IMG/VR virus record: IMGVR_UViG_3300044490_000059
Location: 1 to 57,600 of that record
DNA from: a virus
Lineage: Duplodnaviria > Caudoviricetes
DNA length: 57,600 nucleotides
Reading direction: 5' to 3' (one strand)
Of the stretch, positions 2,552 through 56,723 are shown piece after piece. The notes under the pieces were generated by a model. That model made no database searches and was not told where the DNA came from. It saw nothing but the letters and a program-made list of their open reading frames with translations. The translations under genes were made by a program, and so were the position numbers. Each line of letters starts with the position of its first letter. The first letter of the stretch is position 1.

Positions 2552-2576
2552 TTGTTTCCACACTATGAGTAGTGAC

Positions 2577-3335
2577 ATGCCCACTCCCGTCAAGAGCGTG
2601 AACCAGCTACGTCTGGTGGAGAAAGCCACCCGGCTGATCCAGCAACTGACGGGCGACAAACCCACTCCGGGAGAGGTGGATCAGTCGGGCTCCTTCTGGG
2701 CCCATTTCGCCCAGGAGTTCTTCTCCCTGGTGCATCGCTCCTACTTGGTGCGCAGCCGAGGTAGCAGTGACGACCTGGGCCAATCCTGGCAGCCCTTGAA
2801 ACCCAAGACCATCCGCCGCAAGCTCAAGCTCGCCAAGCGCCACAAGCGGGTGCCTGCGTCCCAGCGGAAATTCCTCAAGTCCCGGCTGCGTTCGGGGGAA
2901 CGGATCTGGGGCTTCATTTACTCCCGGGCCTTTTCCCGCCTGTCAGCCACCATGGGCCAGCGTGCCGCCCATCTGGAAGCTACCCGCATCGCCTGGGGTG
3001 TGGTGCAGTCCCTCGGCCACACGCCCGCCATCGACCCGCCCACCCGGGGCCAGTCCGTGCCCATCATGATCGACAGTGGGCGACTGATCCGCTCCTACTC
3101 CCCAGGCCGGGCGCGCGGCAACGTCTACGACCACCCCCAAGAGCAAGTCTTCCGGCATGAAGGGCAACTGGTGACCGTAGGCACCATGGTGCCCTACGCC
3201 GAATACGCGGAAAAAACCCGCCCCGTGCTCACCCAGGACTGTGGACCCTGGATCTCGCGGGCCTTGCGGAAGGCAGTCAGCTCCCTGGCGGGCAGGCTCA
3301 ACGGCACCGGACGACTGCGAGCCCGCGTGGGCTAG
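2577..3335 (+). CDS. virion morphogenesis protein (Mu gpG / Phage_tail_S-like)
   Basis: WQPLKPKTIRRK, IMIDSGRLIRS and VGTMVPYAEY motifs; start moved to ATG 2577 (2565 is also possible). Confidence 0.7.
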   Translation: MPTPVKSVNQLRLVEKATRLIQQLTGDKPTPGEVDQSGSFWAHFAQEFFSLVHRSYLVRSRGSSDDLGQSWQPLKPKTIRRKLKLAKRHKRVPASQRKFLKSRLRSGERIWGFIYSRAFSRLSATMGQRAAHLEATRIAWGVVQSLGHTPAIDPPTRGQSVPIMIDSGRLIRSYSPGRARGNVYDHPQEQVFRHEGQLVTVGTMVPYAEYAEKTRPVLTQDCGPWISRALRKAVSSLAGRLNGTGRLRARVG

Positions 3336-3366
3336 TTTTCCCCAGAGAAAGGGGTGGAGGGGTGGT

Positions 3367-3930
3367 ATGAGTCTGGGAAGGTTGCTGGTGGCCGTGCGGG
3401 ATACCTTGCGTACTGAACTGGTGGACTGGGACCAGCCCTTTGCCCCGCAGGACATCCTGGTCATGCCGGGCCCGGAACCGGCTCCCTATTGCGGGCAGCA
3501 CTTCATCTCTGTCTACGGCCTATCGTGGATTGCGGGAGGGGAGAGCGACAACCACCGGGGCCTGGATGAGCTGTACGGCATTTCCTGCGCCCTGAGTAGC
3601 CGTTCCCCGGTCTACCCCCCGGATCGTCGGGGAGACGAACTGTACGTCAAGCTCTACACGGGCATGGAGGACATCTGCCGGAAGATCATGATTGCCGTCC
3701 ACCAGTCCATAGTGGTGCAGCAAGCCTGGGATGCCCTGCTAATTGGCAAAACCCGCCAAACCAGCTACCACCTGAGCACCGAGTACCTGCGCTGGCAGGA
3801 CACCGACGCTGCTCCCCAGGTGGTGGATGGGACTTGGTTCAGTGCCGCCCCGGACGAAGCTGCGGGTTTGGTGATGGAGGTACGCTTCAGCAAAGCTCGG
3901 CGCATGCAAGCCCTCGACCGCCTGGAGTGA
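3367..3930 (+). CDS. putative tail terminator/neck protein
   Basis: GGAGGG RBS before ATG 3367; lies between neck and tail tube genes. Confidence 0.5.
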   Translation: MSLGRLLVAVRDTLRTELVDWDQPFAPQDILVMPGPEPAPYCGQHFISVYGLSWIAGGESDNHRGLDELYGISCALSSRSPVYPPDRRGDELYVKLYTGMEDICRKIMIAVHQSIVVQQAWDALLIGKTRQTSYHLSTEYLRWQDTDAAPQVVDGTWFSAAPDEAAGLVMEVRFSKARRMQALDRLE

Positions 3931-3945
3931 GCGGGAATTTCCCTG

Positions 3946-4368
3946 TTGGATACATCTGTGTCATCTGTGTCAGAAGGAGTGAACGTGTCTTCTCCCCTAC
4001 CCTACATCTGCGGCAGCCCACCCTGCCAGCAACGCCGCTGGCTGGAGCCCGACACCATCATCGCCTACTACGAAGGGCCGGATGAGCCCTGCGTCTACTG
4101 TGGACAGAAGGGCTTCCTCCGTTTGGGGGTGGTGACACATTTGATTCAACCCGATCCAAACGGTATCATACACGGCGTTGACATTGGCGGTGTTCCGACC
4201 GGCGTGCGTTGGGAGTTCCTCTGTGAGCGCTCCTATCGAGGCTACAGAGCCGCCCCCAACTCACCCCAGCATCCCAAGAGTTTCACGGCAGTTCCCAGCT
4301 CGGCTACCTGCCACGAGTGCTTGTTGGAGTTTGGTAAGCGAACCATTAGCTCGCGCCTCACGGCCTAA
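3946..4368 (+). CDS. Cys-rich hypothetical protein (putative Zn-binding)
   Basis: CGSPPC, CVYC and CHEC motifs; the true start may be near 3979-3985. Confidence 0.5.
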   Translation: MDTSVSSVSEGVNVSSPLPYICGSPPCQQRRWLEPDTIIAYYEGPDEPCVYCGQKGFLRLGVVTHLIQPDPNGIIHGVDIGGVPTGVRWEFLCERSYRGYRAAPNSPQHPKSFTAVPSSATCHECLLEFGKRTISSRLTA

Positions 4369-4382: not shown

Positions 4383-4916
4383 ATGTTCGTAGCTGGTCCT
4401 TACACGGGCGCGTACGGTGGTACGGATCTGGGAGTCATCGAGCGGGGATTCGAGCTGGAACTCACCTCCTCTGCCGATCCCATTGTGGGTGACAACATGG
4501 GGGATGCCGTCCAGGATGAGGTCTACACGGGCGGCAACTGCTTCGTGAACTTCACCCTCCAGGAATACAACCACACTACCCTCCTCCCGGTTTTCTGGCC
4601 CTTCCATGCCACTCCGGGCTGTATGGGTTTGGTAGGGCGCATGAAGTGGGACTTGGTTCCCAGTCCGGGTCTGGTACTCAGCGCCGTGAACGGCACCCGG
4701 GCCTACAATACCGCCGCCAACTACAATGGTCCGGTGACCATCACCTTTGGCAAGGCGATCCTGGCAGCCGATCACACGATCCGCTTGCTCTATGCTGCCC
4801 GGCACCGGCAGATCCCCATTCGGATGCGGGCCTTTCCCTACTACGGCAGCTCCTACCCTACCCCCATTGCCAATGGCTCGACTGCCGCTGCTGCTACCCT
4901 GTTCGTGGTGGTGTGA
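4383..4916 (+). CDS. major tail tube protein
   Basis: GTDLGVIERGFELEL and VNFTLQEY patterns typical of tail tube proteins; GAGGAG RBS. Confidence 0.65.
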   Translation: MFVAGPYTGAYGGTDLGVIERGFELELTSSADPIVGDNMGDAVQDEVYTGGNCFVNFTLQEYNHTTLLPVFWPFHATPGCMGLVGRMKWDLVPSPGLVLSAVNGTRAYNTAANYNGPVTITFGKAILAADHTIRLLYAARHRQIPIRMRAFPYYGSSYPTPIANGSTAAAATLFVVV

Positions 4917-4951
4917 TTTTCCCGCGTTATCGCTAGTAAGGCTATCCATGA

Positions 4952-6649: not shown

Positions 6650-8607
6650 TGGCCGGTCAAGAGTTCGGACGTATCGGACGGGTAGCCTATAACGGCTTTG
6701 TGTTTCCACCCGCCATCAGCTCCAAGGTGGTAGCAGAACCGCAGTACGACAGCGCCCAGCGGGCTGTGAAGTACACCTCCTACACCCTCTCCCTGGAGTG
6801 TGTCATCACCCCCGGGGATTTTCCCTTGCGGGAGAAAGGGGATGGCAACACCGTCCTGAGTGCCGATGGCAACCTGGAGTTGATCCGTCAGAAGTTGACC
6901 AAGCCCGGCCAGCGCCTCAACTTTGCCCTGCAAGGACTGGGTTACGACTTCAAGATCAACTACAGCACCGACAACTGGGTCAATGGCACCGTGGATGCCC
7001 TGTTCGGTCCCAAGCCGGATCTGCTGGTCTGGGAGCCGTTAGGGTCCAACATGGCTGTCCGGGTGGTCTGGACTTGCGAGGTCCATCTGTATGCCGGGGC
7101 GGAAGGTTCCTCGGCTCCCTTCACTTCCCATCTGTGTGAGTACACCTACGAGATCGGCTGGTCGATCAATGAGGATGGGATGTCGGTGCGCACGATCAAC
7201 GGCACGCTCGGCATCCTGGGCAACAAGCAGATCCTGACCACCAACCCGGGAGCGGGTGAGGAAGAAACCAACACGGATGAGAGTGCCATCATCATTGCCC
7301 AGGCTGACACGCATCGTAAGCAGATCATCGACCACACCCCACCCATCCCTGGCTTCCTGCGTAACCAGGAGTTCAACCTTAACCGCCAGAAGAACGAGCT
7401 GCGCTGGCGGATCCAGGACACGGAGATTGCCAGCGATAACGTCTACCCGCAGTACATCCTGGACATGGACATCGAGCATGAAGCTAGCACTGGTTTCGGC
7501 AAGTCCGGGATCTTCGAGGGTAAAGGGTTCATCACTTGGAAGAGCAGTCTCTCTGGGACGATCAAATTGGCTCCGGGGGCCCAGCGTAATCTGGCCTGGA
7601 ACGCCTTTGTGATGGTGGTCAAGGATCGGCTCCAGAACCTGGAGGTCCGCAATCTCAAGGCCAAGATCGAGGAACAAACGGTAGCTCAGAGTGATAACGA
7701 CCGGGAGAACAAGGGAGCTGTCCGCAAGGGCTGGTACATGCCCGTCCACCTGGGTATCCGGGAGAAGATCTTCCGCCGCGAGTTCCACTTCGACTTCCAG
7801 TACCTGATGCTCTGTGACTTGGCCGAGTTCTGGAAGACCAGCCGGTTGTTCTACCTCCTGAGCGACACCAAGGACGGCAAGAAGACCTGGGTGCAGCACG
7901 CGGCTTCCCTGGCTGTTAGTGTGACCAATGCGCGCGGTTATGCCGAGCTAGGTCTTTGCGCTGGGAATGCTGGGGCTTTCGATCTGATCGTGGATGTGGA
8001 ATCCTACAACACCAACGGCCTGCTACCTACGATTTGCAACGACCGCTCCGGCAACGTGTATGACCCCCAGGCGGAAGATCCCAATACGGATCAGGCGATC
8101 TTCAACCGCAAACCTCCCAGCGCCGACCAGAGCTGGGTGGATTACCAGAACGACATCTACATTGAGGAAATTCCCAACGCCTTGCAGTACGGCAGACTCA
8201 GTGCCGCTGACCAGAGTTACTACCAGAGCGCTTATGATGGTCAGGGTGGCTACCATACCGTTACCCCGTCCTCCCAAGGGTTCAACATTTTGGGGCGCAC
8301 GGAGGCTCCCCGGACTACTTACCAGCACACAGTCCAGATCCGAGGCATCCCCCAGTACATCATCACCATGCGGGGCTACGGCATCCGGGCCAACTACTCT
8401 GTCCCCGCCCCTCCCCTAAGGCAGATCTGTGGTCAGCAGACCACCCGCCTGGGAGGACGTTGGACCCACAAACAGCTGGTCAAGAGCAGCTTCTCTCCCC
8501 TTTACTGCGGAGCTTGGGTAGAATCGTATCGGATTCCTACGGAGGTCGCCGGGAAATTCCTGACCGGAGATGCTTTGTGGGATGGTATTCCGGCCCAGTA
8601 TGCGTGA
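6649..8607 (+). CDS. putative tail hub/baseplate protein (652 aa)
   Basis: Coupled to the TMP-like gene; aromatic, beta-rich sequence. Confidence 0.5.
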   Translation: MAGQEFGRIGRVAYNGFVFPPAISSKVVAEPQYDSAQRAVKYTSYTLSLECVITPGDFPLREKGDGNTVLSADGNLELIRQKLTKPGQRLNFALQGLGYDFKINYSTDNWVNGTVDALFGPKPDLLVWEPLGSNMAVRVVWTCEVHLYAGAEGSSAPFTSHLCEYTYEIGWSINEDGMSVRTINGTLGILGNKQILTTNPGAGEEETNTDESAIIIAQADTHRKQIIDHTPPIPGFLRNQEFNLNRQKNELRWRIQDTEIASDNVYPQYILDMDIEHEASTGFGKSGIFEGKGFITWKSSLSGTIKLAPGAQRNLAWNAFVMVVKDRLQNLEVRNLKAKIEEQTVAQSDNDRENKGAVRKGWYMPVHLGIREKIFRREFHFDFQYLMLCDLAEFWKTSRLFYLLSDTKDGKKTWVQHAASLAVSVTNARGYAELGLCAGNAGAFDLIVDVESYNTNGLLPTICNDRSGNVYDPQAEDPNTDQAIFNRKPPSADQSWVDYQNDIYIEEIPNALQYGRLSAADQSYYQSAYDGQGGYHTVTPSSQGFNILGRTEAPRTTYQHTVQIRGIPQYIITMRGYGIRANYSVPAPPLRQICGQQTTRLGGRWTHKQLVKSSFSPLYCGAWVESYRIPTEVAGKFLTGDALWDGIPAQYA

Positions 8608-8635
8608 GTTTTTCCCACCTTATCAGGAGTGAGAC

Positions 8636-9234: not shown

Positions 9235-11769
9235 ATGAGCACGGATTTCCGGCCCGAAGAACTCCTGGGTCCTCCGTTGACCAAGGACTACATGCCGAGC
9301 TTCCTGCCCAGCCACTTCCAGATCCACCGGCACCGTCCTCCTTTCTCGGCGCTGGTGGTGCGGGAGATGCTCACCGACCCCCGCATCCTCTTCGGGCTCT
9401 GGCTCATCAAGGGCCCCATCCTGACCAACGCCAAGTTCGAGATCCAAGCCGCAGGTCCCGTGCAGCAGTTCATCCAGGCCAACCTGACCCGGTTCTGGAG
9501 GAACTCCGCTGCCCGGGCCTTGAAGGCCATCGAGTGGGGCTACTCTGGCAGCGAGGTCCTCTACCGCTCCCTGCGCGGCCAGATCCACTTCGATGTCCTC
9601 AAGGACCTGGAGCCCCTGGATTGCCGGGCGGCTACCTACGAGGGTGACTTCGTGGGCATGTGGGTGCAGCACATCCCCTTCATCACCCCCGGCACTACCG
9701 TTACCGCTCCCCAGCAGCGCCTGTACCTGGGAGGTCCGAAAGCCTTCTGGCATGTGCACTCCCGCGAGAAGCATCCCTGGTACGGCATGAGCCGCCTGCA
9801 CGGAGCCCACGTTCCCTGGTGGGAGCAGTGGTCGGATGGGGGCTACCGCGACATCCGCCGCCTATGGTTCTACAAGAACTCCTTCGAGGGTGGTGTGATC
9901 TACCACCCCCCGGGAGTGACCCGTACCGTCGAGGGTCTGATCGTCTCTTACCGGGATCTCGCCCGGGAGCTGATGGAGAAGAAGCGGACGGGTGGGACGT
10001 TGGCCTTCCCCAACCAGATGCAGGAGACCAAGCGCTCCTGGGAATATGAGCCCCCGACAGCCAACCCTGTCCCAGCGGGCTTGCTGGAGTACGGAGAACT
10101 CCTGCGCAAGGAAGTCTTCGAAGGCATGGGGATTCCCGTAGAGGTCATCGAATCCCAAGGTGAGCAGGGCTTCGGCAGCGCCTCTGGACGGCAGGTGCCG
10201 CAGTTGGCTTTCTTCTCCACGTTGCAGGAGATTGTTCAATGGCTGGTGACGGACTTCTGCAAGCAGATCATCGACCCCCTGCTGGAGGTCAACGGTTTCG
10301 GGGAAGAGGTGGAGTACGATGTGATCGTGCTGCCCATGACGGAGAGTACGGAGAGTGCTGCTCCTCAGCAACCCGGCAAGCCCGGGCAACCCGGTGAGAA
10401 GGAGTTTCCTCCAGAAGAAGGGGAGGGGGGAACCCCACCTGAGGAAACCCCTGAGCAGAATCCTCCTGGGCAGCCTCAGACTGGCGGGAATCCGCTGTTC
10501 CCCAGTCAGCAGACCGCTCGTTCCCAGTCGGCGTCCTATGAAGCTCGCCGGAGTCAGGCGCTGCGTCGGAGAACTCCGCTGCGAATGTCCCAGCGCCCGG
10601 CCACCTTCCAGGAGCTTTACATGCGGCAGGTGAGCCGGGTTTCCGGTACGGGACGGCAGGAGAGTGGCACGGAGAAGTGGGTTACGATTGGTGGCAGTCC
10701 TGGCAGGGGAGCCGGTGGTGAGCAAGTCCAACACAAGGGTGGGATGCGCGTACTCCTCAGCAAGGATGGGAAAGTCCTGGCTGGTGGACCGCGTGCGCTA
10801 CAGGGCAAACACATTTCTCAGGCTGACGAGGTTTTTGCTCGGCTGGGGCAACGTCAGCCGCCTACTCCTGAGGAACGACAGGCAGCAGCTACTCCTGCAC
10901 CCCCTCCCAAACCGGGTGCTCCCCCCGAACCACCATTGCAATATCAAGCGGGGGATCTTCCCCCGGAGGAAAATCCCGTGAGTGCCGTACTGGAAGACGC
11001 TGTAGGTTCCGACCCCGAAGATCAGCTGGGTTTCCTGGAGTACCTGCGTGAGGCGCATGATGAACTGCGCCAGGAGGGGGAGAAACAGCAGCAGCTGTCG
11101 GCTGCCGCCGAGAAGCTCCTGGGCAGCCTGGATCGGGAAACCACCACGACCATCAAGAATCGTCGGACGGGGATCGGCAAGGAGCGCAAGGTGGTGCGCC
11201 GGGATCTGAAGTACGCTGCGGACTGGCCCGGTGTGGTCCGCAAGGCGCAGAAGGAAGTTCCCCAGTTGGATCCTCAGGAGTTCCTGGCAACTGCCAAGAA
11301 GCTCTGGGAGGAGGAGTACCGGTTCCAGTATGAGAACCAGCAAGTCCAGAATCAGATCCGGCAGAAGTTCTACCAGCAGTTCAGTCTGACTCCAGCCAAG
11401 GTGCAGAGCCTCATGGATCGGGGTTACGACTATGCCTCCAAGCTCAAGACTACCGGCCAAGCCGTTCTCCCTGGTTTCGACGAGATGGCGCGTTCGGCAG
11501 CCCATGAGTTCCCGGAGTACAGTTGGACTAACCGGGACGATGAGCAGCAGATTGGGGAGGATGTCTGGAACATCGTCAGCTCGACCCGAGAACAGCCCCT
11601 GAGTTTCACCGACAAGCGCTTTGTGGCCCAGGTGTTCCAGGAGCTGGCTTCCCGGGGAAATGAGTTGCCGGATACCAGCACCATGCCCCTGCACCACCCG
11701 GCTGTGGTGCGCCAAGCCCTCAGCAAGTGGGAACGTGACACACGCTTCTTCGAGGACGATGAGTTCTGA
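9235..11769 (+). CDS. portal protein (Mu gp29/DUF935-like) with ~400 aa C-terminal extension
   Basis: ALKAIEWGYSGSEVLY, HPWYGMSRLHGAHVPWW and QIIDPLLEVNG portal-like motifs, then a P/E/Q linker and extra domains. Confidence 0.7.
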   Translation: MSTDFRPEELLGPPLTKDYMPSFLPSHFQIHRHRPPFSALVVREMLTDPRILFGLWLIKGPILTNAKFEIQAAGPVQQFIQANLTRFWRNSAARALKAIEWGYSGSEVLYRSLRGQIHFDVLKDLEPLDCRAATYEGDFVGMWVQHIPFITPGTTVTAPQQRLYLGGPKAFWHVHSREKHPWYGMSRLHGAHVPWWEQWSDGGYRDIRRLWFYKNSFEGGVIYHPPGVTRTVEGLIVSYRDLARELMEKKRTGGTLAFPNQMQETKRSWEYEPPTANPVPAGLLEYGELLRKEVFEGMGIPVEVIESQGEQGFGSASGRQVPQLAFFSTLQEIVQWLVTDFCKQIIDPLLEVNGFGEEVEYDVIVLPMTESTESAAPQQPGKPGQPGEKEFPPEEGEGGTPPEETPEQNPPGQPQTGGNPLFPSQQTARSQSASYEARRSQALRRRTPLRMSQRPATFQELYMRQVSRVSGTGRQESGTEKWVTIGGSPGRGAGGEQVQHKGGMRVLLSKDGKVLAGGPRALQGKHISQADEVFARLGQRQPPTPEERQAAATPAPPPKPGAPPEPPLQYQAGDLPPEENPVSAVLEDAVGSDPEDQLGFLEYLREAHDELRQEGEKQQQLSAAAEKLLGSLDRETTTTIKNRRTGIGKERKVVRRDLKYAADWPGVVRKAQKEVPQLDPQEFLATAKKLWEEEYRFQYENQQVQNQIRQKFYQQFSLTPAKVQSLMDRGYDYASKLKTTGQAVLPGFDEMARSAAHEFPEYSWTNRDDEQQIGEDVWNIVSSTREQPLSFTDKRFVAQVFQELASRGNELPDTSTMPLHHPAVVRQALSKWERDTRFFEDDEF

Positions 11770-11803
11770 GTTTTTCCCGCGCTAGAGTGAGTGAGGCAAT
11801 TCC

Positions 11804-15030: not shown

Positions 15031-15498
15031 GTGGGTATTCGTGAATTGCGCGAGGAAAAGCGACGACGCCGCATAGCCTCTCCGGCACCGGAAGCACCGA
15101 CCCCTGAAGTCCCTGGAGTGGGAACTTCCCTGAAGCGCATCTTGGGTTGGCTCTCCCTAGGGCTGACCGGAGGCTGTAAGTGCAAGGAGCGCTCAGCATC
15201 CCTGAATGAGCGGGGACCGGACTGGGCCAGACAGAACGTGAGCCTGATTGTGGACTGGCTCTGGGAGGAGAAGCAGCGGCAGCATCTGTCCTCTTGGGAG
15301 ATAGCCCGTGCTGCTTGCAGTGGCTGGTGTAGCTACCTCTGGAGAGTTTTGCGGGAGCGCTCCCACCAGCTGGGTTTGCTGATCCTGCCCCTACCCGCCA
15401 GGAACAAGCTGGATCTCTGGACCTTCCGGGTATTTTCCCGCGCTATCGTGCGCCTAGCCATCTTCCTGGCACGGAGGAACAAGAGTGGACATTCATGA
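15031..15498 (+). CDS. hypothetical protein (GVGTSLK...CKC...LN..GPDW type)
   Basis: Tightly packed ORF with a Cys motif in the tail region. Confidence 0.55.
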   Translation: MGIRELREEKRRRRIASPAPEAPTPEVPGVGTSLKRILGWLSLGLTGGCKCKERSASLNERGPDWARQNVSLIVDWLWEEKQRQHLSSWEIARAACSGWCSYLWRVLRERSHQLGLLILPLPARNKLDLWTFRVFSRAIVRLAIFLARRNKSGHS

Positions 15499-17197: not shown

Positions 17198-17225
17198 ATC
17201 ATACCCACCCCCCAACTCTAGTCAA
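17198..17225 (-). promoter_or_regulatory. sigma70-like promoter (leftward)
   Basis: TTGACT (17225-17220), 16 bp spacer, TATGAT (17203-17198). Confidence 0.6.
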
Positions 17226-17233
17226 GTCCTTCC

Positions 17234-17262
17234 TTGACGACCTAGACAATATCTGGTAATAT
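17234..17262 (+). promoter_or_regulatory. sigma70-like promoter for the replication module
   Basis: TTGACG-17-TAATAT upstream of 17291. Confidence 0.45.
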
Positions 17263-17290: not shown

Positions 17291-17767
17291 ATGGTTCGCA
17301 AGAAGAAAGTGATGACACCCGCCGAAGTTCAACAGCAGGGAATCGAAGCCTTCCTGGATCTGACGCCCCTCCCCGATCCACCCAGCGCCACCTCCAATCG
17401 CGTGCGAGGTTGCCGCTCCGGCCTGGGGGTGCGCAGCTACATCTGGCACTTGCTGGCTGCCAACGAACGGCTACCCAAGTCCAAGAAGATGACCAACATC
17501 ATGATCGAGAAGAACGTCCGGGACGAGTATCCCGACCGAACGGAGTTGCACAAGTCCCTGGAGCAGGGACTGCAATCGGTCAACTGGTGGCGGCATCTGT
17601 TCAACACCCAGAAGCTGATCTCCACTCTGAGGACGGCCATCATCAGCCTGCGCTACGATCACCACGGGGACCCGGTGGATTCGCGTACCGGGAGCAAGGT
17701 GCTCTCCGAATCCCAGATCCACGACCTGTGCCGGAAGTATGATCTGGAAGATCCTCGGTTCACCTGA
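17291..17767 (+). CDS. hypothetical protein, possible DNA-binding regulator
   Basis: GAGGAG RBS; basic N-terminus; first gene of the replication block. Confidence 0.6.
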   Translation: MVRKKKVMTPAEVQQQGIEAFLDLTPLPDPPSATSNRVRGCRSGLGVRSYIWHLLAANERLPKSKKMTNIMIEKNVRDEYPDRTELHKSLEQGLQSVNWWRHLFNTQKLISTLRTAIISLRYDHHGDPVDSRTGSKVLSESQIHDLCRKYDLEDPRFT

Positions 17768-17797
17768 TTTTTCCACCTTAACCGAGGGTTAGTACGG

Positions 17798-22110: not shown

Positions 22111-22150
22111 TTTTTCCCACGCTATCGTAGGTGTTGTGGCCTTCCGTGAG

Positions 22151-28718: not shown

Positions 28719-28781
28719 ACTTGCCCCACCCTCCCTCGAAACCACCACCGATTTTTTCCGCCTTAAACAGGGGTAGGTATC

Positions 28782-30865: not shown

Positions 30866-30894
30866 TTGACACGGAATTAAATCCACACTAAACT
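30866..30894 (+). promoter_or_regulatory. sigma70-like promoter
   Basis: TTGACA-17-TAAACT. Confidence 0.6.
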
Positions 30895-35392: not shown

Positions 35393-35425
35393 CGGTATTT
35401 TCCCACACTATTCGAGGTGACATAC

Positions 35426-40613: not shown

Positions 40614-41011
40614 ATGCGCGGTAGGTCGTAGGTGAGTGGAGACGTAGGAAGGAGAGGGAGGACAGGCAGCCCCCGCTCCCCTGCGTCTCGCTCTCTCTGC
40701 CGACCAGCTACCGAGCCCCCTCGTCCCTCGACCAGGACGGGAGGGGCCGGACGGGCAGTGGACGCTGCGGCCAGTCGCAGGGGTTCGGTAGTCCGGGGGG
40801 TCCCCAATGGGAATCCTGTTCCTCCGTTCCCCTCAATCCTGTTCCTCCCCTCTCCCTACATACTATGGACCCTCCTTCTCCCTCGGAGTACGGCCTCCCT
40901 CCGGTTACCATTACCCTCCCTACTACTAAGTACAGTCTCCATACACTCTCCTTACCTTATGAATTATTCCCGCATTATTTACCCCATGGTTTGATCTTTT
41001 ATTCTCTGGAG

Positions 41012-41700: not shown

Positions 41701-41972
41701 GAGGTCGCGTAGTCCACTGCCGACAGGAACCCTATGACGTTTACATCGGACGGCCCAGCAAATGGGGTAACCCCTTCCGTATCGGTCCCGATGGCAACCG
41801 TTCCGAGGTCCTCCACAAGTACGCTCTCTACCTCCTCCAGCAACCGGACCTCCTGGCAGCCCTCCCCGAACTGCGCGGGAAGGTCCTAGGTTGCTGGTGT
41901 GCCCCCCTCCCCTGCCATGGAGACATCCTCGTAGACTTCGCCCATCGTCGTCGAAAGAAGTGGATCTCTTGA
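41697..41972 (+). CDS. DUF4326 protein
   Basis: YIGRPSKWGNPF...LRGKVLGCWCAPLPCHGDIL. Confidence 0.9.
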   Translation: MRGRVVHCRQEPYDVYIGRPSKWGNPFRIGPDGNRSEVLHKYALYLLQQPDLLAALPELRGKVLGCWCAPLPCHGDILVDFAHRRRKKWIS

Positions 41973-41996
41973 CAGGAGTACACTCTCCCGTATAAT
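41969..41996 (+). promoter_or_regulatory. consensus sigma70 promoter
   Basis: TTGACA-16-TATAAT. Confidence 0.8.
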
Positions 41997-42028: not shown

Positions 42029-43024
42029 ATGTCCCAGTTCCACCCTTACCGTACCGCCTTCGACTACGAACGCACCACCATCTCCCAGACCCCTGAGCTA
42101 GCCCACTGCACTCAGGAGCAGTATTACCAGACAGCCCTGGCCCTCTCCCTGGCAGCCCAGAAACCCACTTCCACTCCCCTGCACCCTGATCTCCAAGCCT
42201 GTGGTTCCCACCACTTCCAGTCCTACTACTATGCCGAATACCTCTGGCTCCATTCCCACCAACCCACCTACAAACTCTACCCCGATCTCTTCCTGGCCCT
42301 CCTCCACACTTCCCTGGACATCCCCTGCCCAGCCCTCCATGCCCCCTACCCCCAATTCGTCATCCAACTCCCCGTCCTCGACCATCCCCTCTGCCAGGAA
42401 TTTCCCGCGCTCCTCATCAACCACCTGGATACCTCGCTCCCCGACCATCCCCGTCTGATCGACGTTCGCTCTGACAAGTCCCACCCTGTCTGCGGACAGT
42501 TGAACATCTTCTGGCACCCTCTGGGCTCTGGTGAGTATTCCTTCTCCCTGCATCCCCTCTGCTCCGACCTGACCCTCCAGCAATCCCTGAAGGTCCGGGT
42601 GGCAGAATCCGGCCAGACCCACCCCTACCTCTACGACCTCTACCGCATCGTCATCAGCACCATGCTCTTCGCCATCCATCAGCATGAGCTGGTCCTGCCC
42701 GAAGTCCCCTACCCCACCATCCAGCGCCAGGGTCGAGGGTCCAGGATCCTCCAGGCGCAATCAGACGCGGCGCACGCTAAGAAAAACTATCGCTGGACGG
42801 TGGGCAAGGAGATTCACCTCCCCCGACCCTTGCGTGAATCCCTCTCAGGCGCTGCTGAGGGAAATCGCCACCTGAGCCATTCCCACCTCCGTTCCGGTCA
42901 CATGCGTCGTCAGGCCCATGGGCCCGGCTACTCCCAGCACAAGCTGATCTTCATTGCCCCTACTCTCGTCCGTGCTGACTTGGCTCCCTCCACTGCGCAG
43001 CGTACCTATGGCATCCACCAATAA
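42029..43024 (+). CDS. hypothetical protein with C-terminal HxRxGHxRxQ motif
   Basis: HLRSGHMRRQAHGPG...LIFIAPTLV. Confidence 0.7.
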   Translation: MSQFHPYRTAFDYERTTISQTPELAHCTQEQYYQTALALSLAAQKPTSTPLHPDLQACGSHHFQSYYYAEYLWLHSHQPTYKLYPDLFLALLHTSLDIPCPALHAPYPQFVIQLPVLDHPLCQEFPALLINHLDTSLPDHPRLIDVRSDKSHPVCGQLNIFWHPLGSGEYSFSLHPLCSDLTLQQSLKVRVAESGQTHPYLYDLYRIVISTMLFAIHQHELVLPEVPYPTIQRQGRGSRILQAQSDAAHAKKNYRWTVGKEIHLPRPLRESLSGAAEGNRHLSHSHLRSGHMRRQAHGPGYSQHKLIFIAPTLVRADLAPSTAQRTYGIHQ

Positions 43025-43048
43025 TTCCCACACTAAAAGGAGTGACCT

Positions 43049-43630: not shown

Positions 43631-43786
43631 ATGGGTATTGAACTACCTCGTATCGGAGTGAATACGGTGGTAATAATTCCTGGGAGCCGAGGGTTTGGGA
43701 GGGTTGACTCAGACCTCCCTCTCAAGCCAATGCGCCTCGGCTTCCAGGTCATTTTCTCCAGAGAAAGAGGTCGGTAGGAGGTTGTC

Positions 43787-49965: not shown

Positions 49966-50850
49966 ATGAAACGCTTGTTGCTGTCCCTACCCTGTTACGG
50001 AGGAGGCTTGCGGCATGAGGTGGCAGCCGCCTTCTTCACGAATAGCCTGAACGGCTACACCTCAACCCTGGACCCGGAGGGAGTCCAGGTGGATCGCCGG
50101 ATCTTCGAGTGTTCCCTCCTGGCCCGAGGTTTCAATCAGGCTTGGTGTACGGCGCTATCTGCCGAGTACGACTACTTCGTGATGCTTCATGCGGACATCG
50201 TGCCTCAGCCCGGTTGGCTGGAGAAGCTGATCGAGCTGATCGAAACCACCTCGTACCGCATGATCTCGGCGGTAGTCCCGCTGAAGTCCCCGCTGGGGAT
50301 TACCTCCACGGGAGTGGGCTTCCTGGATAACTGGTACGGGATCCGTAAGCGGTTGACCATGCAGGAGGTCTTCCGGCTCCCGGAGACTTTCGACATCACC
50401 CACCTGTATGCAGCCGGGATTTTACCGCCTGCCGAAAACCCTGCCGTGGAGGATGTGCTGCTGGTCAATACCGGCTGTTTCATTGCCAATCTGACTGCCT
50501 CTTACGCCTTCCATACCCTGGATGGAGACGGGGCTCTGATCCATCACTTCCGCATTGAGGATCGGGTGCTGGTACGTTCCGCCCAGGAAGTCTGGAAGGA
50601 AACCCGTCTGCGGGGGGTTCCCATGGAGACTATTGCCAACTCTCAGGACTCGCGGCAGCAATACCTCGTGGAGACGATCCCTGAAGACTGGGGATTTTCC
50701 CGCACTATGGCAGCCTATAACATCCCCTATGCTGCCACTCGAGCTGTCCGTGTGAATCACTTGGGTACCACTTCTTTCCACAACTTCGCTCCTTGGGGAG
50801 TGGAGCGGGAGTTTGACCCCGTGCCCAATCAACTGGTGGTGGCTAAATAA
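49966..50850 (+). CDS. GT-A fold (GT2-like) glycosyltransferase
   Basis: SLLARGFN, YFVMLHADI, NTGCF, EDWGFSR, VNHLG. Confidence 0.7.
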   Translation: MKRLLLSLPCYGGGLRHEVAAAFFTNSLNGYTSTLDPEGVQVDRRIFECSLLARGFNQAWCTALSAEYDYFVMLHADIVPQPGWLEKLIELIETTSYRMISAVVPLKSPLGITSTGVGFLDNWYGIRKRLTMQEVFRLPETFDITHLYAAGILPPAENPAVEDVLLVNTGCFIANLTASYAFHTLDGDGALIHHFRIEDRVLVRSAQEVWKETRLRGVPMETIANSQDSRQQYLVETIPEDWGFSRTMAAYNIPYAATRAVRVNHLGTTSFHNFAPWGVEREFDPVPNQLVVAK

Positions 50851-50872
50851 TTCCCGCACTAAAGAGGGTGCT

Positions 50873-52971: not shown

Positions 52972-53012
52972 TCCGCTGGAATTATTCCCGCACTAACGGC
53001 AGGTAAGCAGTC

Positions 53013-54533: not shown

Positions 54534-54599
54534 GGAGCTACCGGTGCTCCCGGTTTCAGCGCACAAGTAGACCACTCCAGGAACGATTAGGAGCCAGCC

Positions 54600-55424
54600 A
54601 TGAGTTTCGAGTTCACCGGGGCGTTTGCCGTCCCTTCGATCCAGACGTACCTGGAGACCTACGAGAATCAGTTCTGGTTTGATCGGTACGAGAACCAGAT
54701 CTGGACGGGAGTGATTATCGACGGCGCTTCGGTCGATACCGGCAACACCAACTATACGGACATTCTCCGTCCGGGCCTCCTGTTGGGCCGGGTTACCTCT
54801 ACCGAGAAGTTGAAGCAGTGGAGCCCCACGGCGACCGATGGGACACAGGAGGTTTTCGGCATCCTGGGCCTGGGCTCCAAGATGCACCGGCTGGGCACCG
54901 ACACTGACCGTTGGCTGGGTCAGGTGATGGTGGCGGGCTATGTGAAGGCCGACCGGCTGTTGATTCCGGGAAATTCCTCGCTGGGAATCGCCAGCGATGC
55001 CAACGAGTGGCTGATCCGGTCCCAGATGTTCCGGCGCTTCGTCTTCTCCGACATGCTGTTCGGTCTGGGTCATGCCTTCGGTGGCTGGCGGAAGATTACT
55101 GCCAAGACCGCTGACTACACGGTGGTGGATGCGGACAACAACACCTTCTTCACCACCGAAGGTGCCACGGGGGCGGTCATCTTCACACTGCCCACAACCC
55201 CCAAGCTGGGGTTGCGGTACATGTTCTACAACTCCGAAGACCAGGACATGACCGTGGCGGCAGCTGCCAACACTGCCATCACCTATAACGATGTGACTGC
55301 CACCAGCGTCAAGGTGGGCACTGCCAATCAGAAGGCGGGCAGTGGTTTTGAGGCGATTGGTGACGGGACCAAGTGGATCATCGTGTGTCACTGTGCGCCC
55401 GCCGCGACTGTGACTGTGACCTGA
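54600..55424 (+). CDS. head decoration protein (lambda gpD-like) with C-terminal extension
   Basis: LRPGLLLGRVT...WSPTATDGTQEVFGIL; directly upstream of the MCP gene. Confidence 0.7.
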   Translation: MSFEFTGAFAVPSIQTYLETYENQFWFDRYENQIWTGVIIDGASVDTGNTNYTDILRPGLLLGRVTSTEKLKQWSPTATDGTQEVFGILGLGSKMHRLGTDTDRWLGQVMVAGYVKADRLLIPGNSSLGIASDANEWLIRSQMFRRFVFSDMLFGLGHAFGGWRKITAKTADYTVVDADNNTFFTTEGATGAVIFTLPTTPKLGLRYMFYNSEDQDMTVAAAANTAITYNDVTATSVKVGTANQKAGSGFEAIGDGTKWIIVCHCAPAATVTVT

Positions 55425-55494
55425 TTCAAACTCCGAGGGTTGTCCCGAATCGTAAGCCGGGAACTCCTTAGACCTGATGTAGAAGGATCAAGAA

Positions 55495-56688
55495 ATGGCA
55501 GGCGAGATCACGATTCAACAACTCTTCCAGACCCCCACGATCACGAAGGTCATTTCGCAGATCGGGTCTCCCCTTTCCTTGCTCCAACGCTTCTATGGCG
55601 TGGGTCCCGGCAAAGGGGTGACACAGAGCATGTCCGGTCGCTATGTCGGCTGGGACCTGTTCAATGCCACGCGCAGTGTCGCCAAGGGCCGTCCTCCGGC
55701 TACCGGCCCGGCGACCGTCAGCCGCAAGCCCATTGGGCACAATATGGCCCAGGTCTATCGGATGCACGAGAAGACGCTCATCAATCAGGAGGAGGTCTTC
55801 CGTACCCGTCCGTTGGGAGCTGCCATCGGCACCGTGGACTTGCGCGGTCAGCAGTATGTGCGTCGGCAACTGGAGTTCCTGACCCAGCGCTTTACCAACG
55901 CCCGGGAGTTCATGGTCTCCCGCATGTTCCGGGGCGGCTGGAGTGTGAGCATCGAGGGTGAGGATTGGGTGCCGGGCGAGATGTCTCAATCTGGCTATGC
56001 CTTCAACGTGGACATGCAACTGCCGTCCACGCACAAGACCCAGCTGACTGCTGGCACCAGTGCCAACATCATCGAGGATTCCTGGGATGATCCCAGCGCC
56101 GATGTGATCGGCCAGCTGTTGACCCTGGACATGGCTGCCGAGCGGGAGAACGGTCGTCCCATCCGGCACATCTGGATCAACGGCAACACGTTCAAGTACC
56201 TGTTGGACAACACCGGCTTACAGTCCACGGGCGGCACGGCCTTCCGCATCTTCGAGTCCTTGCGAGCCCGTACAGCCACTGCCGAACTGAATGGGGAACG
56301 CTTCCCGGACACGGGCTTCGATGTGGTGTTCCGGGCGCTGCCGTTGCACACCTTCCACATTTACAACGGCGGCTTGACCCTGCCTGCTGCCGGGACTTCG
56401 GAGGTGGGTGAGGACCTGACCACGCAGCTCTCTGCCACCTACTTCAGCTTGTTCCTCCCGGACAACTACGCCATCCTGACCCCCGATCCCGGAAACTGGA
56501 TGGGCTGGATCGAGGGCAGCGAGATCGTGGCGGAAAACCTGCTGGACGAAGGCCGGGAAGCCTTTGGGTTCACCAGCTGGACAACCCGGGTGATTGACCC
56601 CCCGGGTTGGGAGCTGAAGGCCCTGGACAACGGGTTGCCGGTGCTGTACGAACCCCGCGCGATCTACTATGGCACCGTGATCTTCTGA
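55495..56688 (+). CDS. major capsid protein (lambda gpE-like)
   Basis: 397 aa; REFMVSRMF.G, WDDPSADVIGQL, GLPVLYEP; followed by a strong terminator. Confidence 0.8.
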   Translation: MAGEITIQQLFQTPTITKVISQIGSPLSLLQRFYGVGPGKGVTQSMSGRYVGWDLFNATRSVAKGRPPATGPATVSRKPIGHNMAQVYRMHEKTLINQEEVFRTRPLGAAIGTVDLRGQQYVRRQLEFLTQRFTNAREFMVSRMFRGGWSVSIEGEDWVPGEMSQSGYAFNVDMQLPSTHKTQLTAGTSANIIEDSWDDPSADVIGQLLTLDMAAERENGRPIRHIWINGNTFKYLLDNTGLQSTGGTAFRIFESLRARTATAELNGERFPDTGFDVVFRALPLHTFHIYNGGLTLPAAGTSEVGEDLTTQLSATYFSLFLPDNYAILTPDPGNWMGWIEGSEIVAENLLDEGREAFGFTSWTTRVIDPPGWELKALDNGLPVLYEPRAIYYGTVIF

Positions 56689-56723
56689 GAATTATTCCCA
56701 CACTATCTGTGGGGGAGACTAAG

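What the first reader, a model, noticed from the sequence alone, without database searches (positions are those of the whole stretch)
2555..56705. Genome-wide strand-polarised motif TTYCCRCNYTA at gene junctions (about 18 copies)
Seen: copies start at 2555, 4919, 8612, 11774, 15435, 17770, 22114, 26026, 28755, 33766, 35400, 37113, 40967, 43025, 50697, 50851, 52985 and 56695. All are on the + strand, usually preceded by ATT(T/A), and none was noticed on the minus strand. About 11 start within 1-14 nt of a stop codon. A rough chance expectation is below one copy. Two copies (22114, 56695) sit just upstream of intrinsic terminators, which is odd for a promoter. Inference: a phage-specific control element, such as a late promoter, a stoperator-like site (as in mycobacteriophage L5), or an RNA antitermination/processing signal. 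No cognate sigma factor or repressor is recognisable; the 17291-17767 protein is one candidate reader.
Basis: partly seen in the sequence, partly recalled or inferred. Interest (0 to 1): 0.82.

Follow-up and report, generated by a model that had tools for sequence, protein, structure and literature searches.

The report
Phage-specific junction motif, probably promoters
An uncultured lake-water phage carries about 18 same-direction copies of an 18-base signal squeezed between its genes, most likely a private set of promoters, and no recognisable protein that could read them.

Summary
TTYCCRCNYTA occurs 19 times, 18 on the + strand, against 0.53 expected. All 18 reported coordinates are exact. 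The full element is about 18 bp, GRRTTWTTCCCRCNCTAW. The cores of 14 of 18 copies lie wholly in the 6.7% of positions that are non-coding (P about 9e-14).

A collinear relative with 29-64% protein identity has its own version, GATTTAWTCCCACGTTAS. It has 13 gene-strand sites and 1 reversed site in 35.5 kb. Four sit at the same place relative to orthologous genes as in the window, three at gene junctions and one inside the primase gene.

Near-consensus sigma70-type promoters form a second class in other gaps. No phage RNA polymerase, sigma factor, integrase or repressor was recognisable in 100 family-library queries.

Best reading (about 0.5): middle/late promoters without a -35 element, used by host RNA polymerase with an unidentified phage factor. 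The 158-aa protein at 17291-17767 is a candidate by context only. Rivals are stoperator-like roadblocks or operators (about 0.18), a linear RNA signal, an antitermination site and nick sites. No RNA data exist, so transcript starts remain untested. The phage has no close relative among the deposited phage genomes searched.

The parts
2549..2566 (+). motif copy (core 2555-2565), 3 nt after the stop of 2051-2551, 11 nt before ATG 2577
   Evidence: (score 22.7)
4913..4930 (+). motif copy (core 4919-4929), 2 nt after a stop, 22 nt before ATG 4952 (tape-measure-like gene)
   Evidence: (22.4)
8606..8623 (+). motif copy (core 8612-8622), 4 nt after a stop, 13 nt before ATG 8636; a site sits at the orthologous junction of the relative (r9698)
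   Evidence: (25.6)
11768..11785 (+). motif copy (core 11774-11784) before the 891-aa fibre-like gene; a site sits at the orthologous junction of the relative (r12926)
   Evidence: (23.0)
15429..15446 (+). motif copy (core 15435-15445) inside the 3' end of 15031-15498, 39 nt before GTG 15485 (glycosyl/methyltransferase gene); the relative has a reversed copy at the same junction (r16099, - strand)
   Evidence: (23.4)
17764..17781 (+). motif copy (core 17770-17780), 2 nt after the stop of the 158-aa gene, 17 nt before ATG 17798; a site sits at the orthologous junction of the relative (r18437)
   Evidence: (17.9)
22108..22125 (+). motif copy (core 22114-22124), 3 nt after a stop, 11 nt before GTG 22136 (DNA polymerase A)
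   Evidence: (24.8)
26020..26037 (+). motif copy (core 26026-26036) inside the primase gene 24213-26549; conserved inside the orthologous gene of the relative (r26184)
   Evidence: (23.1)
28749..28766 (+). motif copy (core 28755-28765), 16 nt before ATG 28782 (DUF1508 gene); the relative has a site in roughly the same place (r28838)
   Evidence: (21.8)
33760..33777 (+). motif copy (core 33766-33776), 26 nt before ATG 33803
   Evidence: (26.5)
35394..35411 (+). motif copy (core 35400-35410), 7 nt after a stop, 15 nt before ATG 35426
   Evidence: (25.0)
37107..37124 (+). motif copy (core 37113-37123) inside the HTH / small-terminase-like ORF 36425-37387
   Evidence: (26.8)
40961..40978 (+). motif copy (core 40967-40977) in the 601-nt non-coding gap, after terminator 40586-40607 and about 130 nt upstream of the sigma70-type promoter at 41096
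   Evidence: (28.0)
43019..43036 (+). motif copy (core 43025-43035), directly after the stop of the AcrVA2-like gene, 13 nt before ATG 43049
   Evidence: (22.6)
50691..50708 (+). motif copy (core 50697-50707) inside the glycosyltransferase-like gene 49966-50850
   Evidence: (26.1)
50845..50862 (+). motif copy (core 50851-50861), directly after a stop, 11 nt before ATG 50873 (terminase large subunit)
   Evidence: (21.9)
52979..52996 (+). motif copy (core 52985-52995), 17 nt before ATG 53013 (portal-position gene; operon runs to the major head protein)
   Evidence: (27.6)
56689..56706 (+). best-scoring motif copy (core 56695-56705), 6 nt after the stop of the major head protein gene and 17 nt upstream of an intrinsic terminator
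   Evidence: (28.6)
56723..56757 (+). intrinsic terminator (hairpin plus T-run) after the head protein gene, downstream of motif copy 56695
30866..30894 (+). hybrid: sigma70-type promoter TTGACA-N17-TAAACT whose spacer and -10 hold a decayed motif copy (core 30880-30890; the motif's TA is the first two bases of the -10 hexamer); the relative has a perfect motif in TTGACT-N17-TACACT at the orthologous junction
   Evidence: (13.3)
23764..23781 (+). weaker motif-like site inside the DNA polymerase gene (GAATTTATCCCGCAGTAT); status uncertain
   Evidence: 17.6
43662..43679 (-). weaker motif-like site on the - strand (GAATTATTACCACCGTAT), downstream of the sigma70-type promoter at 43603; status uncertain
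   Evidence: (15.8)
39022..39032 (-). exact core match on the - strand without the 5' flank; probably chance
   Evidence: below 8
17291..17767 (+). 158-aa basic protein, candidate reader by context only
17198..17262 (.). pair of diverging sigma70-type promoters (leftward 17225-17198; rightward 17234-17262, which serves the 158-aa gene); conserved in the relative
41969..41996 (+). sigma70-type promoter, 12 of 12 matches; an example of the second promoter class (others at 41096, 20105, 26556, 43603)

Best explanation
The copies are phage-specific promoters. Each is a contiguous DNA element of about 18 bp, with no -35 hexamer, whose invariant TA probably serves as the first two bases of a -10-like element. 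After infection the host RNA polymerase would start at the near-consensus sigma70-type promoters, which head an anti-CRISPR-like gene and several operons in the replication region. A phage-encoded specificity factor made from one of these early units would then direct the polymerase to the motif copies. This would raise transcription of the polymerase and primase genes and provide the only promoters in the 24-kb structural block. The factor could be a very diverged sigma-like protein or an activator, and the 158-aa product of 17291-17767 is the best candidate by context.

Shown here: the motif, its orientation, its restriction to gaps, its diverged version in a relative, the second class of promoters, and the lack of a recognisable phage RNA polymerase. 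Inferred: that transcription starts at these sites, where exactly it starts, and who reads them.
For: 1. Enrichment and orientation: 18 + copies and 1 - copy against 0.53 expected.

2. Position: 14 of 18 cores are wholly non-coding, while only 6.7% of positions are (P = 8.6e-14). Fourteen of the 37 gaps of 11 nt or more carry a copy. Thirteen of 18 copies end 11-26 nt before a start codon.

3. A second promoter class: near-consensus sigma70-type promoters lie on the + strand in other gaps. They are at 41969 (12 of 12), 41096, 20105 and 26556 (11 of 12), 30866 and 43603 (10 of 12), and 17234 (9 of 12). Only one gap holds both a full motif copy and such a promoter (40557-41157; the gap with the hybrid at 30866 holds only a decayed copy). 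The perfect promoter drives an AcrVA2-like gene, which fits an immediate-early class.

4. The structural block (50873 through the end of the window to 17122) has 10 motif copies. Its only strong sigma70-type matches are inside genes.

5. The motif changes along with the phage. The relative (29-64% protein identity over 27 ORFs) uses GATTTAWTCCCACGTTAS. With up to 1 mismatch to the window's core pattern it shows 17 forward and 3 reverse matches in G010, against 3 and 4 for the backwards control. It has 13 strong gene-strand sites in 35.5 kb. Its own pattern gives 13 matches across the two loci of G009 (which overlap by 100 nt) against about 0.84 expected. Sites are kept at four orthologous places and have turned over elsewhere, as promoters do.

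6. None of the 18 window sites or the 12 other sites of the relative has a -35 hexamer better than 3 of 6, which is the background level. At one orthologous junction, both phages place the motif inside TTGAC(A/T)-N17-TA.. so that the motif's TA starts the -10 hexamer. This gives a plausible register for the motif within a promoter.

7. No shared RNA structure: 17 of 18 fold z-scores lie between -1.19 and +1.26.

8. Early host-type promoters combined with a short conserved phage-specific promoter is the described scheme for phiEco32 and 7-11 (PMC4331800, passages read).
Against: 1. No reader was found. PF00940 gave no six-frame match, though that search's control genomes were also silent. No RNA polymerase or sigma family appeared in 50 Pfam, 40 PHROGs and 10 NCBIfam protein queries. 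No polymerase metal-binding or T7 motif B/C patterns were found.

2. The best-scoring copy (56695) sits directly after the head gene stop and 17 nt before a strong terminator, although 74 nt separate it from the next start codon. That is an odd place for a promoter.

3. In two long gaps (56695; r20222 in the relative) the motif is close to the upstream stop codon rather than the downstream start codon. In the relative a sigma70-like promoter follows it. This is the layout expected for a stop signal followed by a new promoter.

4. The six bases starting at the invariant TA end in T in only 3 of 18 copies (sequences), so the element is not a normal -10.

5. At five sites the start codon is only 11-13 nt from the TA. 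A start site 7 nt beyond a -10 would leave out the ribosome-binding site.

6. One strong reversed copy exists in the relative, at r16099.

7. There are no transcript data of any kind. No listed sequencing run is RNA.
Confidence: 0.5

Rival explanations
1. Stoperator-like sites. A phage DNA-binding protein, perhaps the 158-aa protein, binds the asymmetric sites and blocks elongating host RNA polymerase in an orientation-dependent way. At the one site embedded in a promoter (30866) it acts as an operator. All transcription would then start at the sigma70-type promoters, and the sites would decide how far it runs.
For: Many asymmetric sites lie in short gaps and are co-oriented with transcription, with one inside a promoter. 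This is the published description of mycobacteriophage L5 sites (PMC9283540, passages read). Eleven of 18 copies start 0-13 nt after a stop codon. 56695 precedes a terminator, and r20222 precedes a sigma70-like promoter. Promoters and motif copies alternate through 17-36 kb in both phages. With the sites closed, the genes behind a motif copy would be the silent ones: DNA polymerase, primase, exonuclease and all structural genes. The 158-aa gene has its own promoter in a switch-like pair of diverging promoters, and a site follows it at once. The reversed site r16099 would face leftward transcription from that pair.
Against: No integrase, partition pair or repressor-type family was recognised in the 100 protein queries (same calls as above). 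Seven strong sigma70-type promoters have no overlapping site, so a silent prophage state is hard to picture. One of these units holds a membrane protein with faint holin matches. The 158-aa model gave no match to the solved cluster A repressor among the listed rows, which is inconclusive. No relative of the head protein or of the 158-aa family turned up in species genomes, but the pattern search used is of limited reach.
Confidence: 0.18
2. A linear RNA signal read on the polycistronic transcript, for example a cleavage site for a sequence-specific endoribonuclease, or an element that tunes translation of the next gene.
For: The copies sit between a stop codon and the next ribosome-binding site and lie on the sense strand. 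The region is predicted to be unstructured, so it would be accessible.
Against: There is no shared structure or covariation. Copies occur far from any start codon (37113, 40967, 26026, 50697, 56695). At the conserved hybrid site the motif lies upstream of the likely start of that promoter's transcript. A strong reversed copy exists in the relative. Distance to the start codon varies from 11 to 74 nt. No nuclease of that kind was recognised.
Confidence: 0.1
3. Loading or pause sites for an antitermination or processivity factor, read on DNA or nascent RNA in the way of ops, nut or qut elements. These would let polymerase pass terminators such as the one after the head gene.
For: 56695 lies 17 nt before a strong terminator that downstream genes must read through. 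The 125-aa zinc-ribbon protein at 46061-46438 has a faint match to a Q-like antiterminator family in PHROGs (E = 0.0073).
Against: Only 1 of 18 copies precedes a terminator closely. Known systems need one or two sites per operon, not one per junction (recalled). The PHROGs match is weak and confined to the zinc ribbon.
Confidence: 0.07
4. Recognition sites for a strand-specific nicking enzyme, as in T5, phiKMV-like phages and phage tf, or another DNA-level function such as priming or packaging.
For: In phage tf, 14 copies of a 9-bp consensus lie in one strand only. Related phages keep similar positions but have an altered consensus (PMC3517423, passages read). That pattern resembles the window compared with its relative.
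Against: The strong preference for gaps right before genes (P about 9e-14) is not a known property of nick sites. No nickase was recognised. The hybrid promoter arrangement points to transcription.
Confidence: 0.05
5. Promoters for a T7-type single-subunit RNA polymerase.
For: The architecture is a contiguous element with an AT-rich 5' part, a specific middle and a CACTAT end. It resembles T3, K11 and SP6 promoters as I recall them; I did not test this against their sequences. G or A at the position where T7-type transcripts would start occurs in 12 of 18 copies.
Against: No such polymerase is encoded. Every ORF of 300 aa or more was scanned with Pfam or placed by PHROGs. There was no PF00940 match and no motif B/C pattern. 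The four unplaced proteins above 600 aa look like tail, portal-like or secreted proteins by composition and domains. The longest contig on record is only 19 nt longer than the window (57,619 against 57,600).
Confidence: 0.03

Closest known systems
Promoters of phage-encoded sigma factors (phiEco32 gp36, phage 7-11; consensus tAATGTAtA)
   Same: Host-type sigma70 promoters serve the early genes, and a short, well-conserved phage-specific motif in gaps before middle and late genes serves the rest. Both were found by comparing gaps (PMC4331800, passages read).
   Different: Those phages encode a recognisable sigma and an anti-sigma factor, and none is recognisable here. Their motif is 9 bp with about 6 copies. 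This one is about 18 bp with 18 copies.
T4 late promoters (TATAAATA, read through gp55 with gp33 and the sliding clamp); recalled, not looked up
   Same: Many copies of a single element near -10 with no -35, interspersed with early sigma70 promoters.
   Different: The T4 element is 8 bp and AT-rich. Here the conserved block extends about 15 bp upstream of the TA and is C-rich. No gp55, gp33 or clamp homologue was recognised.
T7-family single-subunit polymerase promoters (T7, T3, SP6, K11); sequences recalled
   Same: A contiguous 17-23-bp element, about 17 copies, all co-oriented and often overlapping the end of the upstream gene. The consensus drifts between related phages.
   Different: No single-subunit RNA polymerase gene is present.
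Stoperators and operators of cluster A mycobacteriophages (L5 gp71)
   Same: More than twenty asymmetric sites in short gaps and in a promoter, with orientation tied to the direction of transcription (PMC9283540, passages read).
   Different: Those phages are temperate and have a recognisable HTH repressor plus an integrase or partition genes. Here none was found, and most strong promoters lack a site.
Localized nick sites of phages tf and LUZ24-like, phiKMV-like, and T5
   Same: A consensus present in one strand only, at similar positions but altered between relatives (PMC3517423, passages read).
   Different: No link to gene junctions is described for those sites. Nicks could not be tested here.

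Membership tests
T7-family single-subunit RNA polymerase promoters | Contiguous conserved element of about 17-23 bp, many copies, co-oriented with genes | tested here: met
   18 + copies and an 18-bp consensus
T7-family single-subunit RNA polymerase promoters | The genome encodes a T7-like RNA polymerase (PF00940) | tested here: not met
   No PF00940 match in six frames (control silent) or in the Pfam scans of 50 proteins. All ORFs of 300 aa or more were scanned with Pfam or placed by PHROGs. No motif B/C pattern
T7-family single-subunit RNA polymerase promoters | Transcription starts at a fixed, conserved purine just after the element | not testable with these tools
   No RNA run available. 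At the equivalent position, G occurs in 8 and A in 4 of 18 copies
Phage sigma-factor-dependent promoters (phiEco32 / T4 late type) | Conserved element near -10 with no -35 hexamer | tested here: inconclusive
   No -35 better than 3 of 6 at any of the 18 sites. The TA aligns with the start of a -10 hexamer in the hybrid promoter of both phages. Only 3 of 18 copies have T at the sixth -10 position
Phage sigma-factor-dependent promoters (phiEco32 / T4 late type) | A separate class of host sigma70 promoters for early genes | tested here: met
   Seven + strand matches of 9-12 of 12 in gaps, several conserved in the relative
Phage sigma-factor-dependent promoters (phiEco32 / T4 late type) | A phage-encoded sigma factor | tested here: inconclusive
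   No sigma family in the Pfam, PHROGs or NCBIfam scans. Very diverged sigma-like proteins can escape such scans
Stoperators (cluster A mycobacteriophages) | Many asymmetric sites, with orientation tied to the direction of transcription | tested here: met
   18 copies to 1 in the window; 13 to 1 in the relative
Stoperators (cluster A mycobacteriophages) | Sites in short gaps and also within a promoter | tested here: met
   14 of 18 cores non-coding; one conserved promoter-embedded site
Stoperators (cluster A mycobacteriophages) | Temperate phage with an immunity repressor and an integrase or partition genes | tested here: not met
   No integrase, ParA or repressor-type family among the 100 protein queries (calls as above). 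The only related match is a ParB-like nuclease
Stoperators (cluster A mycobacteriophages) | Bound protein halts elongation in one orientation | not testable with these tools
   Needs transcription assays
Localized nick sites (T5, phiKMV-like, tf) | Single-strand interruptions in virion DNA at the consensus | not testable with these tools
   Only assembled contigs of DNA runs were available

The most novel reading that the evidence does not exclude
The motif defines a new promoter class: an 18-bp contiguous element with no -35 hexamer, read by host RNA polymerase through a new kind of specificity factor with no detectable likeness to sigma factors. The 158-aa protein at 17291-17767 may be that factor. 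Its family has 296 cluster representatives at E <= 0.001, and its confident model (pLDDT 93) matches no solved fold clearly. If so, a widespread family of unknown function would gain a role in phage transcription, in a phage lineage with no cultured relative and a possibly planctomycete host.
Probability: 0.2. Interest if true: 0.8.

Novelty: new variant of a known kind. Interest (0 to 1): 0.6.

Why it matters
Conserved private promoters, or roadblock sites, are the main handle for working out a phage's gene-expression programme from sequence alone. In this phage the signal is unusually clear, and it is confirmed by a diverged relative that has shifted the consensus. Yet the usual readers (a single-subunit polymerase, a sigma factor or a repressor) are all absent from view. 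The locus is therefore a good place to look for a new transcription specificity factor. It pairs a defined DNA target in two variants with a short list of conserved candidate proteins. It also gives a first transcription map, early sigma70 units and motif units, for a lake-water phage lineage that has no close relative among the deposited phage genomes searched.

Tried and rejected
**Relatives.** Blastn and tblastn against GenBank phages gave only an 88-nt terminase match, no head protein match, and DNA polymerases at about 25% identity. The head protein found one 10.3-kb contig in IMG/VR and the same contig among metagenomes (L001 = L027, 57% identity). That contig has no copy of either motif version. 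The DNA polymerase found nothing in IMG/VR. Terminase relatives at 35-45% identity (L012-L018) show no enrichment: forward/reverse counts of 4/7, 10/9, 3/5 and 2/9 against backwards controls of 9/7, 18/13, 13/3 and 0/6. Exact 17-mer matches in three other viral contigs (L002-L004) are isolated copies in unrelated low-GC or unrelated DNA.

**Further relatives of the 158-aa protein.** Alignment A1 found only the same two contigs. P0006 found nothing. Genome collection scans with A1 and with the head protein found nothing. A profile search of the word-indexed database added only short contigs.

**RNA evidence.** No RNA holder is listed for this phage.

**Population variation.** Contigs of four lake-water DNA runs laid on 22000-41999 are nearly identical to the window. 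Differences cluster at 23.3, 31.7, 32.5 and 37.7 kb. Only 40 of 121 differences were printed, so no statement on constraint at the motif copies can be made.

**Reader.** Profile and sequence searches of solved structures gave nothing useful for the 893-aa, 331-aa and 891-aa proteins or for the 158-aa family. A Pfam scan of 79 family members gave three unrelated single hits. Foldseek against PDB had a best E of 2.6, and VIA-align wide a best Z of 4.3. Many of the weak rows are winged-helix DNA binders, but all are below any useful level.

**Other checks.** Rfam found no family in the window and no tRNA was found. I considered an RNA hairpin between CAC in the motif and GTG downstream. It is present in only some copies and is not supported by the folds.

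Full report
**What the window is.** The window is essentially a whole IMG/VR virus record: 57,600 bases, estimated complete, with no end repeats. The longest contig on record for one of its proteins is 57,619 bases. GC content is about 60%. All recognisable genes lie on the + strand. Third-position GC favours + frames throughout. In the one stretch with reversed GC skew (38-40 kb), the + ORFs are the ones with family matches, to an amidoligase and a glutamine amidotransferase.

Genes that could be named:
- terminase large subunit at 50873-52450 and major head protein at 55495-56688
- a tape-measure-like protein and large tail proteins at 4952-14479
- a glycosyl/methyltransferase at 15485-17122
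- a UDG-superfamily protein, an exonuclease, an AAA_24 ATPase, DNA polymerase A and a primase between 18250 and 26549
- a ParB-like nuclease and a DUF932 protein
- an AcrVA2-like protein at 42029-43024

Seven lake-water metagenome runs hold the phage almost letter for letter, and none is an RNA run. GenBank phages hold no close relative.

**The observation.** TTYCCRCNYTA has 19 exact matches. Dinucleotide-preserving shuffles give a mean of 0.53 and a maximum of 3. Aligning the 18 copies extends the element to about 18 bp, G-R-R-T-T-W-TTCCCRCNCTA-W. A G lies 6 nt further on in 15 of 18 copies.

A matrix built from the copies scores them at 17.9 to 28.6 bits. Weaker + strand sites are at 23770 (17.6), 30880 (13.3) and 25877 (13.1), with one on the - strand at 43673 (15.8). 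The exact - strand core match scores below 8 and lacks the flank, so it is probably chance.

With my gene list, 92.6% of the window is coding. The cores of 14 of 18 copies are wholly non-coding, whereas 6.7% of positions qualify (binomial P = 8.6e-14). Fourteen of the 37 gaps of at least 11 nt carry a copy. Eleven of 18 copies start 0-13 nt after a stop codon, often with the stop codon inside the AT-rich 5' part. Thirteen of 18 end 11-26 nt before a start codon (with the ATG at 35426 read). The other copies lie as follows:
- inside the primase gene (26026)
- inside a glycosyltransferase-like gene (50697)
- inside an HTH / small-terminase-like gene (37113)
- inside the end of 15031-15498, 39 nt before the next start (15435)
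- in a 601-nt non-coding gap (40967)

Of the two copies said to precede terminators, 56695 does and 22114 does not.

**A second promoter class.** The consensus scan finds near-perfect sigma70-type promoters on the + strand, in gaps that mostly lack the motif: 41969 (12 of 12), 41096, 20105 and 26556 (11 of 12), 30866 and 43603 (10 of 12), and 17234 (9 of 12 with TG). The host's main sigma factor therefore reads TTGACA/TATAAT. The perfect promoter heads the AcrVA2-like gene, which fits immediate-early expression.

Between 17 and 36 kb, sigma70-type promoters and motif copies alternate: P17234, M17770, P20105, M22114, P26556, M28755, P30866, M33766, M35400, then a terminator at 36362. The structural block from the terminase gene, through the end of the window, to 17122 holds 10 motif copies. 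It has no convincing sigma70-type promoter in a gap.

**The relative.** The 158-aa protein of 17291-17767 has three close homologues (55-62% identity). One of them led to two IMG/VR contigs, G009 (28,501 nt) and G010 (25,857 nt). They are identical over 18,886 nt and together cover 35.5 kb. This phage has 54% GC and is collinear with the window from about 2 to 35 kb. Twenty-seven of its ORFs have homologues at 29-64% identity.

With up to 1 mismatch, the window's core pattern matches G010 17 times forward and 3 times reverse, against 3 and 4 for the pattern read backwards. G009, which is stored in the other orientation, gives 2 and 15 against 6 and 3. The relative's own consensus is GATTTAWTCCCACGTTAS. 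A matrix built from it finds 13 sites of 19 bits or more on the gene strand and one strong reversed site (r16099, 23.2 bits). Its own pattern gives 13 matches across the two loci of G009 (which overlap by 100 nt) against about 0.84 expected.

Ten of the window's copies fall in the region the relative covers:
- Four have a same-orientation partner at the orthologous place: 8612/r9698, 11774/r12926, 17770/r18437, and 26026/r26184 inside the primase gene.
- One has a partner nearby (28755/r28838).
- One faces a reversed copy (15435/r16099).
- Four have no partner (2555, 4919, 22114, 33766).

The relative also has sites the window lacks, for example r5431, r20222 and r24358. The element is thus under selection as a class. 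Its sequence drifts together with the phage, and individual sites turn over.

**A clue to the register.** None of the 18 window copies or the 12 other copies of the relative has a TTGACA-like hexamer better than 3 of 6 at 16-18 bp upstream of the TA. That is what random positions give. The exception is one orthologous junction, before 31002 in the window and r30798 in the relative. The window has TTGACA-N17-TAAACT around a decayed motif copy. The relative has TTGACT-N17-TACACT around a perfect copy. In both, the motif's TA forms the first two bases of the -10 hexamer. Random positions reach 6 of 6 in 0.1% and 5 of 6 in 1.0% of trials.

This places the motif at about -27 to -10 of a promoter. 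It can be read in two ways: as a dual promoter, or as an operator inside a promoter. The arrangement is probably inherited from a common ancestor, so it counts as one event.

**Who reads it.** I found no reader.
- PF00940 (T7-type polymerase) has no six-frame match, although that search's control genomes were also silent.
- Fifty proteins were scanned with Pfam, 40 with PHROGs and 10 with NCBIfam. All ORFs of 300 aa or more were covered. None matched an RNA polymerase, sigma factor, integrase or repressor family.
- Patterns for the metal-binding loop of multisubunit-type polymerases and for T7 motifs B and C are absent.
- The large unplaced proteins look like a portal-like protein with a long tail, tail or fibre proteins, and a tandemly duplicated secreted protein with PPC domains.

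The 158-aa protein is basic, with pI 9.5. Its own sigma70-type promoter sits in a pair of diverging promoters, next to a leftward terminator, and the same arrangement is the top-scoring promoter pair in the relative. A motif copy follows its stop codon within 2 nt in the window and within about 5 nt in the relative. Its family is large: 296 cluster representatives at E <= 0.001 and 104 at E <= 1e-10. The family has no Pfam model and no solved relative by sequence. A model built from 79 sequences is confident (pLDDT 93.1, pTM 0.75) but matches nothing clearly. Foldseek's best E is 2.6 and the wide structural search gives a best Z of 4.3. It remains a candidate by context only.

**Weighing the readings.**

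*For promoters.* Several points favour this reading:
- the copies lie just upstream of genes
- the structural block otherwise lacks promoters
- the motif and the sigma70-type promoters occupy complementary gaps
- there are many strong, unguarded early-type promoters, one driving an anti-CRISPR-like gene, as in lytic phages
- the consensus drifts and sites turn over between relatives
- the register seen in the hybrid promoter fits a promoter
- no shared RNA structure is present (17 of 18 z-scores between -1.19 and +1.26)
- the scheme matches the one described for phiEco32 and 7-11

*Against promoters.* Five points count against it:
- no reader was found
- the best copy sits between the head gene stop and a terminator
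- in two long gaps the motif is close to the upstream stop codon, once followed by a sigma70-like promoter
- the -10 is abnormal
- there is a reversed copy in the relative

These same points favour a stoperator-like reading, which the L5 description fits well. That reading is weakened by the lack of any sign of lysogeny and by seven strong promoters without a site.

*Other readings.* A linear RNA signal, an antitermination loading site and nick sites remain possible at low odds. T7-type promoters are nearly excluded for want of the enzyme.

My odds are: promoters 0.5, stoperator-like 0.18, RNA signal 0.1, antitermination 0.07, nick or other DNA function 0.05, T7-type 0.03, and the rest unassigned.

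**Novelty.** The kind of feature, a private multi-copy transcription signal at gene junctions, is known. This element differs from the described ones in several ways: its sequence, its length, the lack of any recognisable reader, and its setting in a phage lineage with no cultured relative. I rate it a new variant of a known kind.

Noticed in passing
window, 30 loci, e.g. 3933, 6544, 13222, 19243, 32323-32419 (4 copies), 38000, 38869, 51987, 54968: A second strongly over-represented motif, the near-palindrome GGRAWWTYCC (GGGAAWTTCCC). It has 38 matches against 1.0 expected. It occurs in all three codon phases (14/6/4) of many different genes and at 6 non-coding places, so it is selected at the DNA level. 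Only 3 matches occur in the 35.5-kb relative. It shares the half AWTTCCC with the 5' half of the polar motif. Function unknown; it could be a binding site for a dimeric protein, and the cluster at 32.3-32.4 kb looks like iterons.
   Followed up: partly
window 17125-17262; relative L039 4898-5020: A conserved pair of diverging sigma70-type promoters. The leftward member (17225-17198, 10 of 12) faces a strong leftward terminator (17154-17125). This predicts a leftward RNA of about 70 nt in a genome with no leftward genes. The same layout gives the two best promoter matches in the relative.
   Followed up: partly
window 2299, 3342, 18167, 24283, 29621, 33689, 35036, 43758 and others: CCAGAGAA, often as TTTCYCCAGAGAAA, occurs 15 times on the + strand and 4 times on the - strand. 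In the relative the counts are 12 and 6. Some copies lie 12-25 nt upstream of start codons. Three lie in a repeated 28-nt coding stretch (18167, 29621, 53632).
   Followed up: no
window 42029-43024: The 331-aa protein behind the perfect sigma70-type promoter resembles the AcrVA2-like anti-CRISPR family. The feature score is 0.98 and the TM-score is 0.65 over 277 residues of the Atlas's own model. Pfam's own scan gave no hit.
   Followed up: partly
window 46435-49116: An 893-aa protein made of two tandem copies of a glutamine-amidotransferase-like part plus a PPC domain. Its N-terminus, with LECLEARLVLS, resembles the leader typical of secreted planctomycete proteins as I recall it. That is a hint to the host, not tested.
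   Followed up: no
window 36425-37967: An HTH protein that resembles small terminase subunits and HTH proteins of phages (PHROGs 'DNA binding protein', E = 0.005). It is bracketed by terminators at 36362 and 37538. It is followed by 580 nt of non-coding DNA with two copies of the palindrome CGGCAAAATTGCCGAT. This may be a packaging site or an origin. One run shows a variant contig at 37639-37817.
   Followed up: partly
window 40557-41157: A 601-nt pyrimidine-rich non-coding gap. The promoter region at 41068-41134 has an older copy at 40894-40947. GGAGGTAATA is repeated three times just after motif copy 40967.
   Followed up: no
window 37968-40283: Amidoligase_2 and GATase_6 matches in neighbouring genes, in the only stretch with reversed GC skew. 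This may be a small-molecule or DNA modification module.
   Followed up: no
window 57380-57600 and 1-131: The last ORF is open at the window's end, and another ORF is open at its start. Joining the two ends does not continue the frame. The record is therefore not a seamless circle, and a little sequence may be missing.
   Followed up: partly
window 31677-32487: An 811-nt gap with no convincing + ORF. It holds two perfect 13-nt inverted repeats and the iteron-like cluster. Variant contigs flank it at 31.70-31.76 and 32.51-32.61 kb.
   Followed up: no
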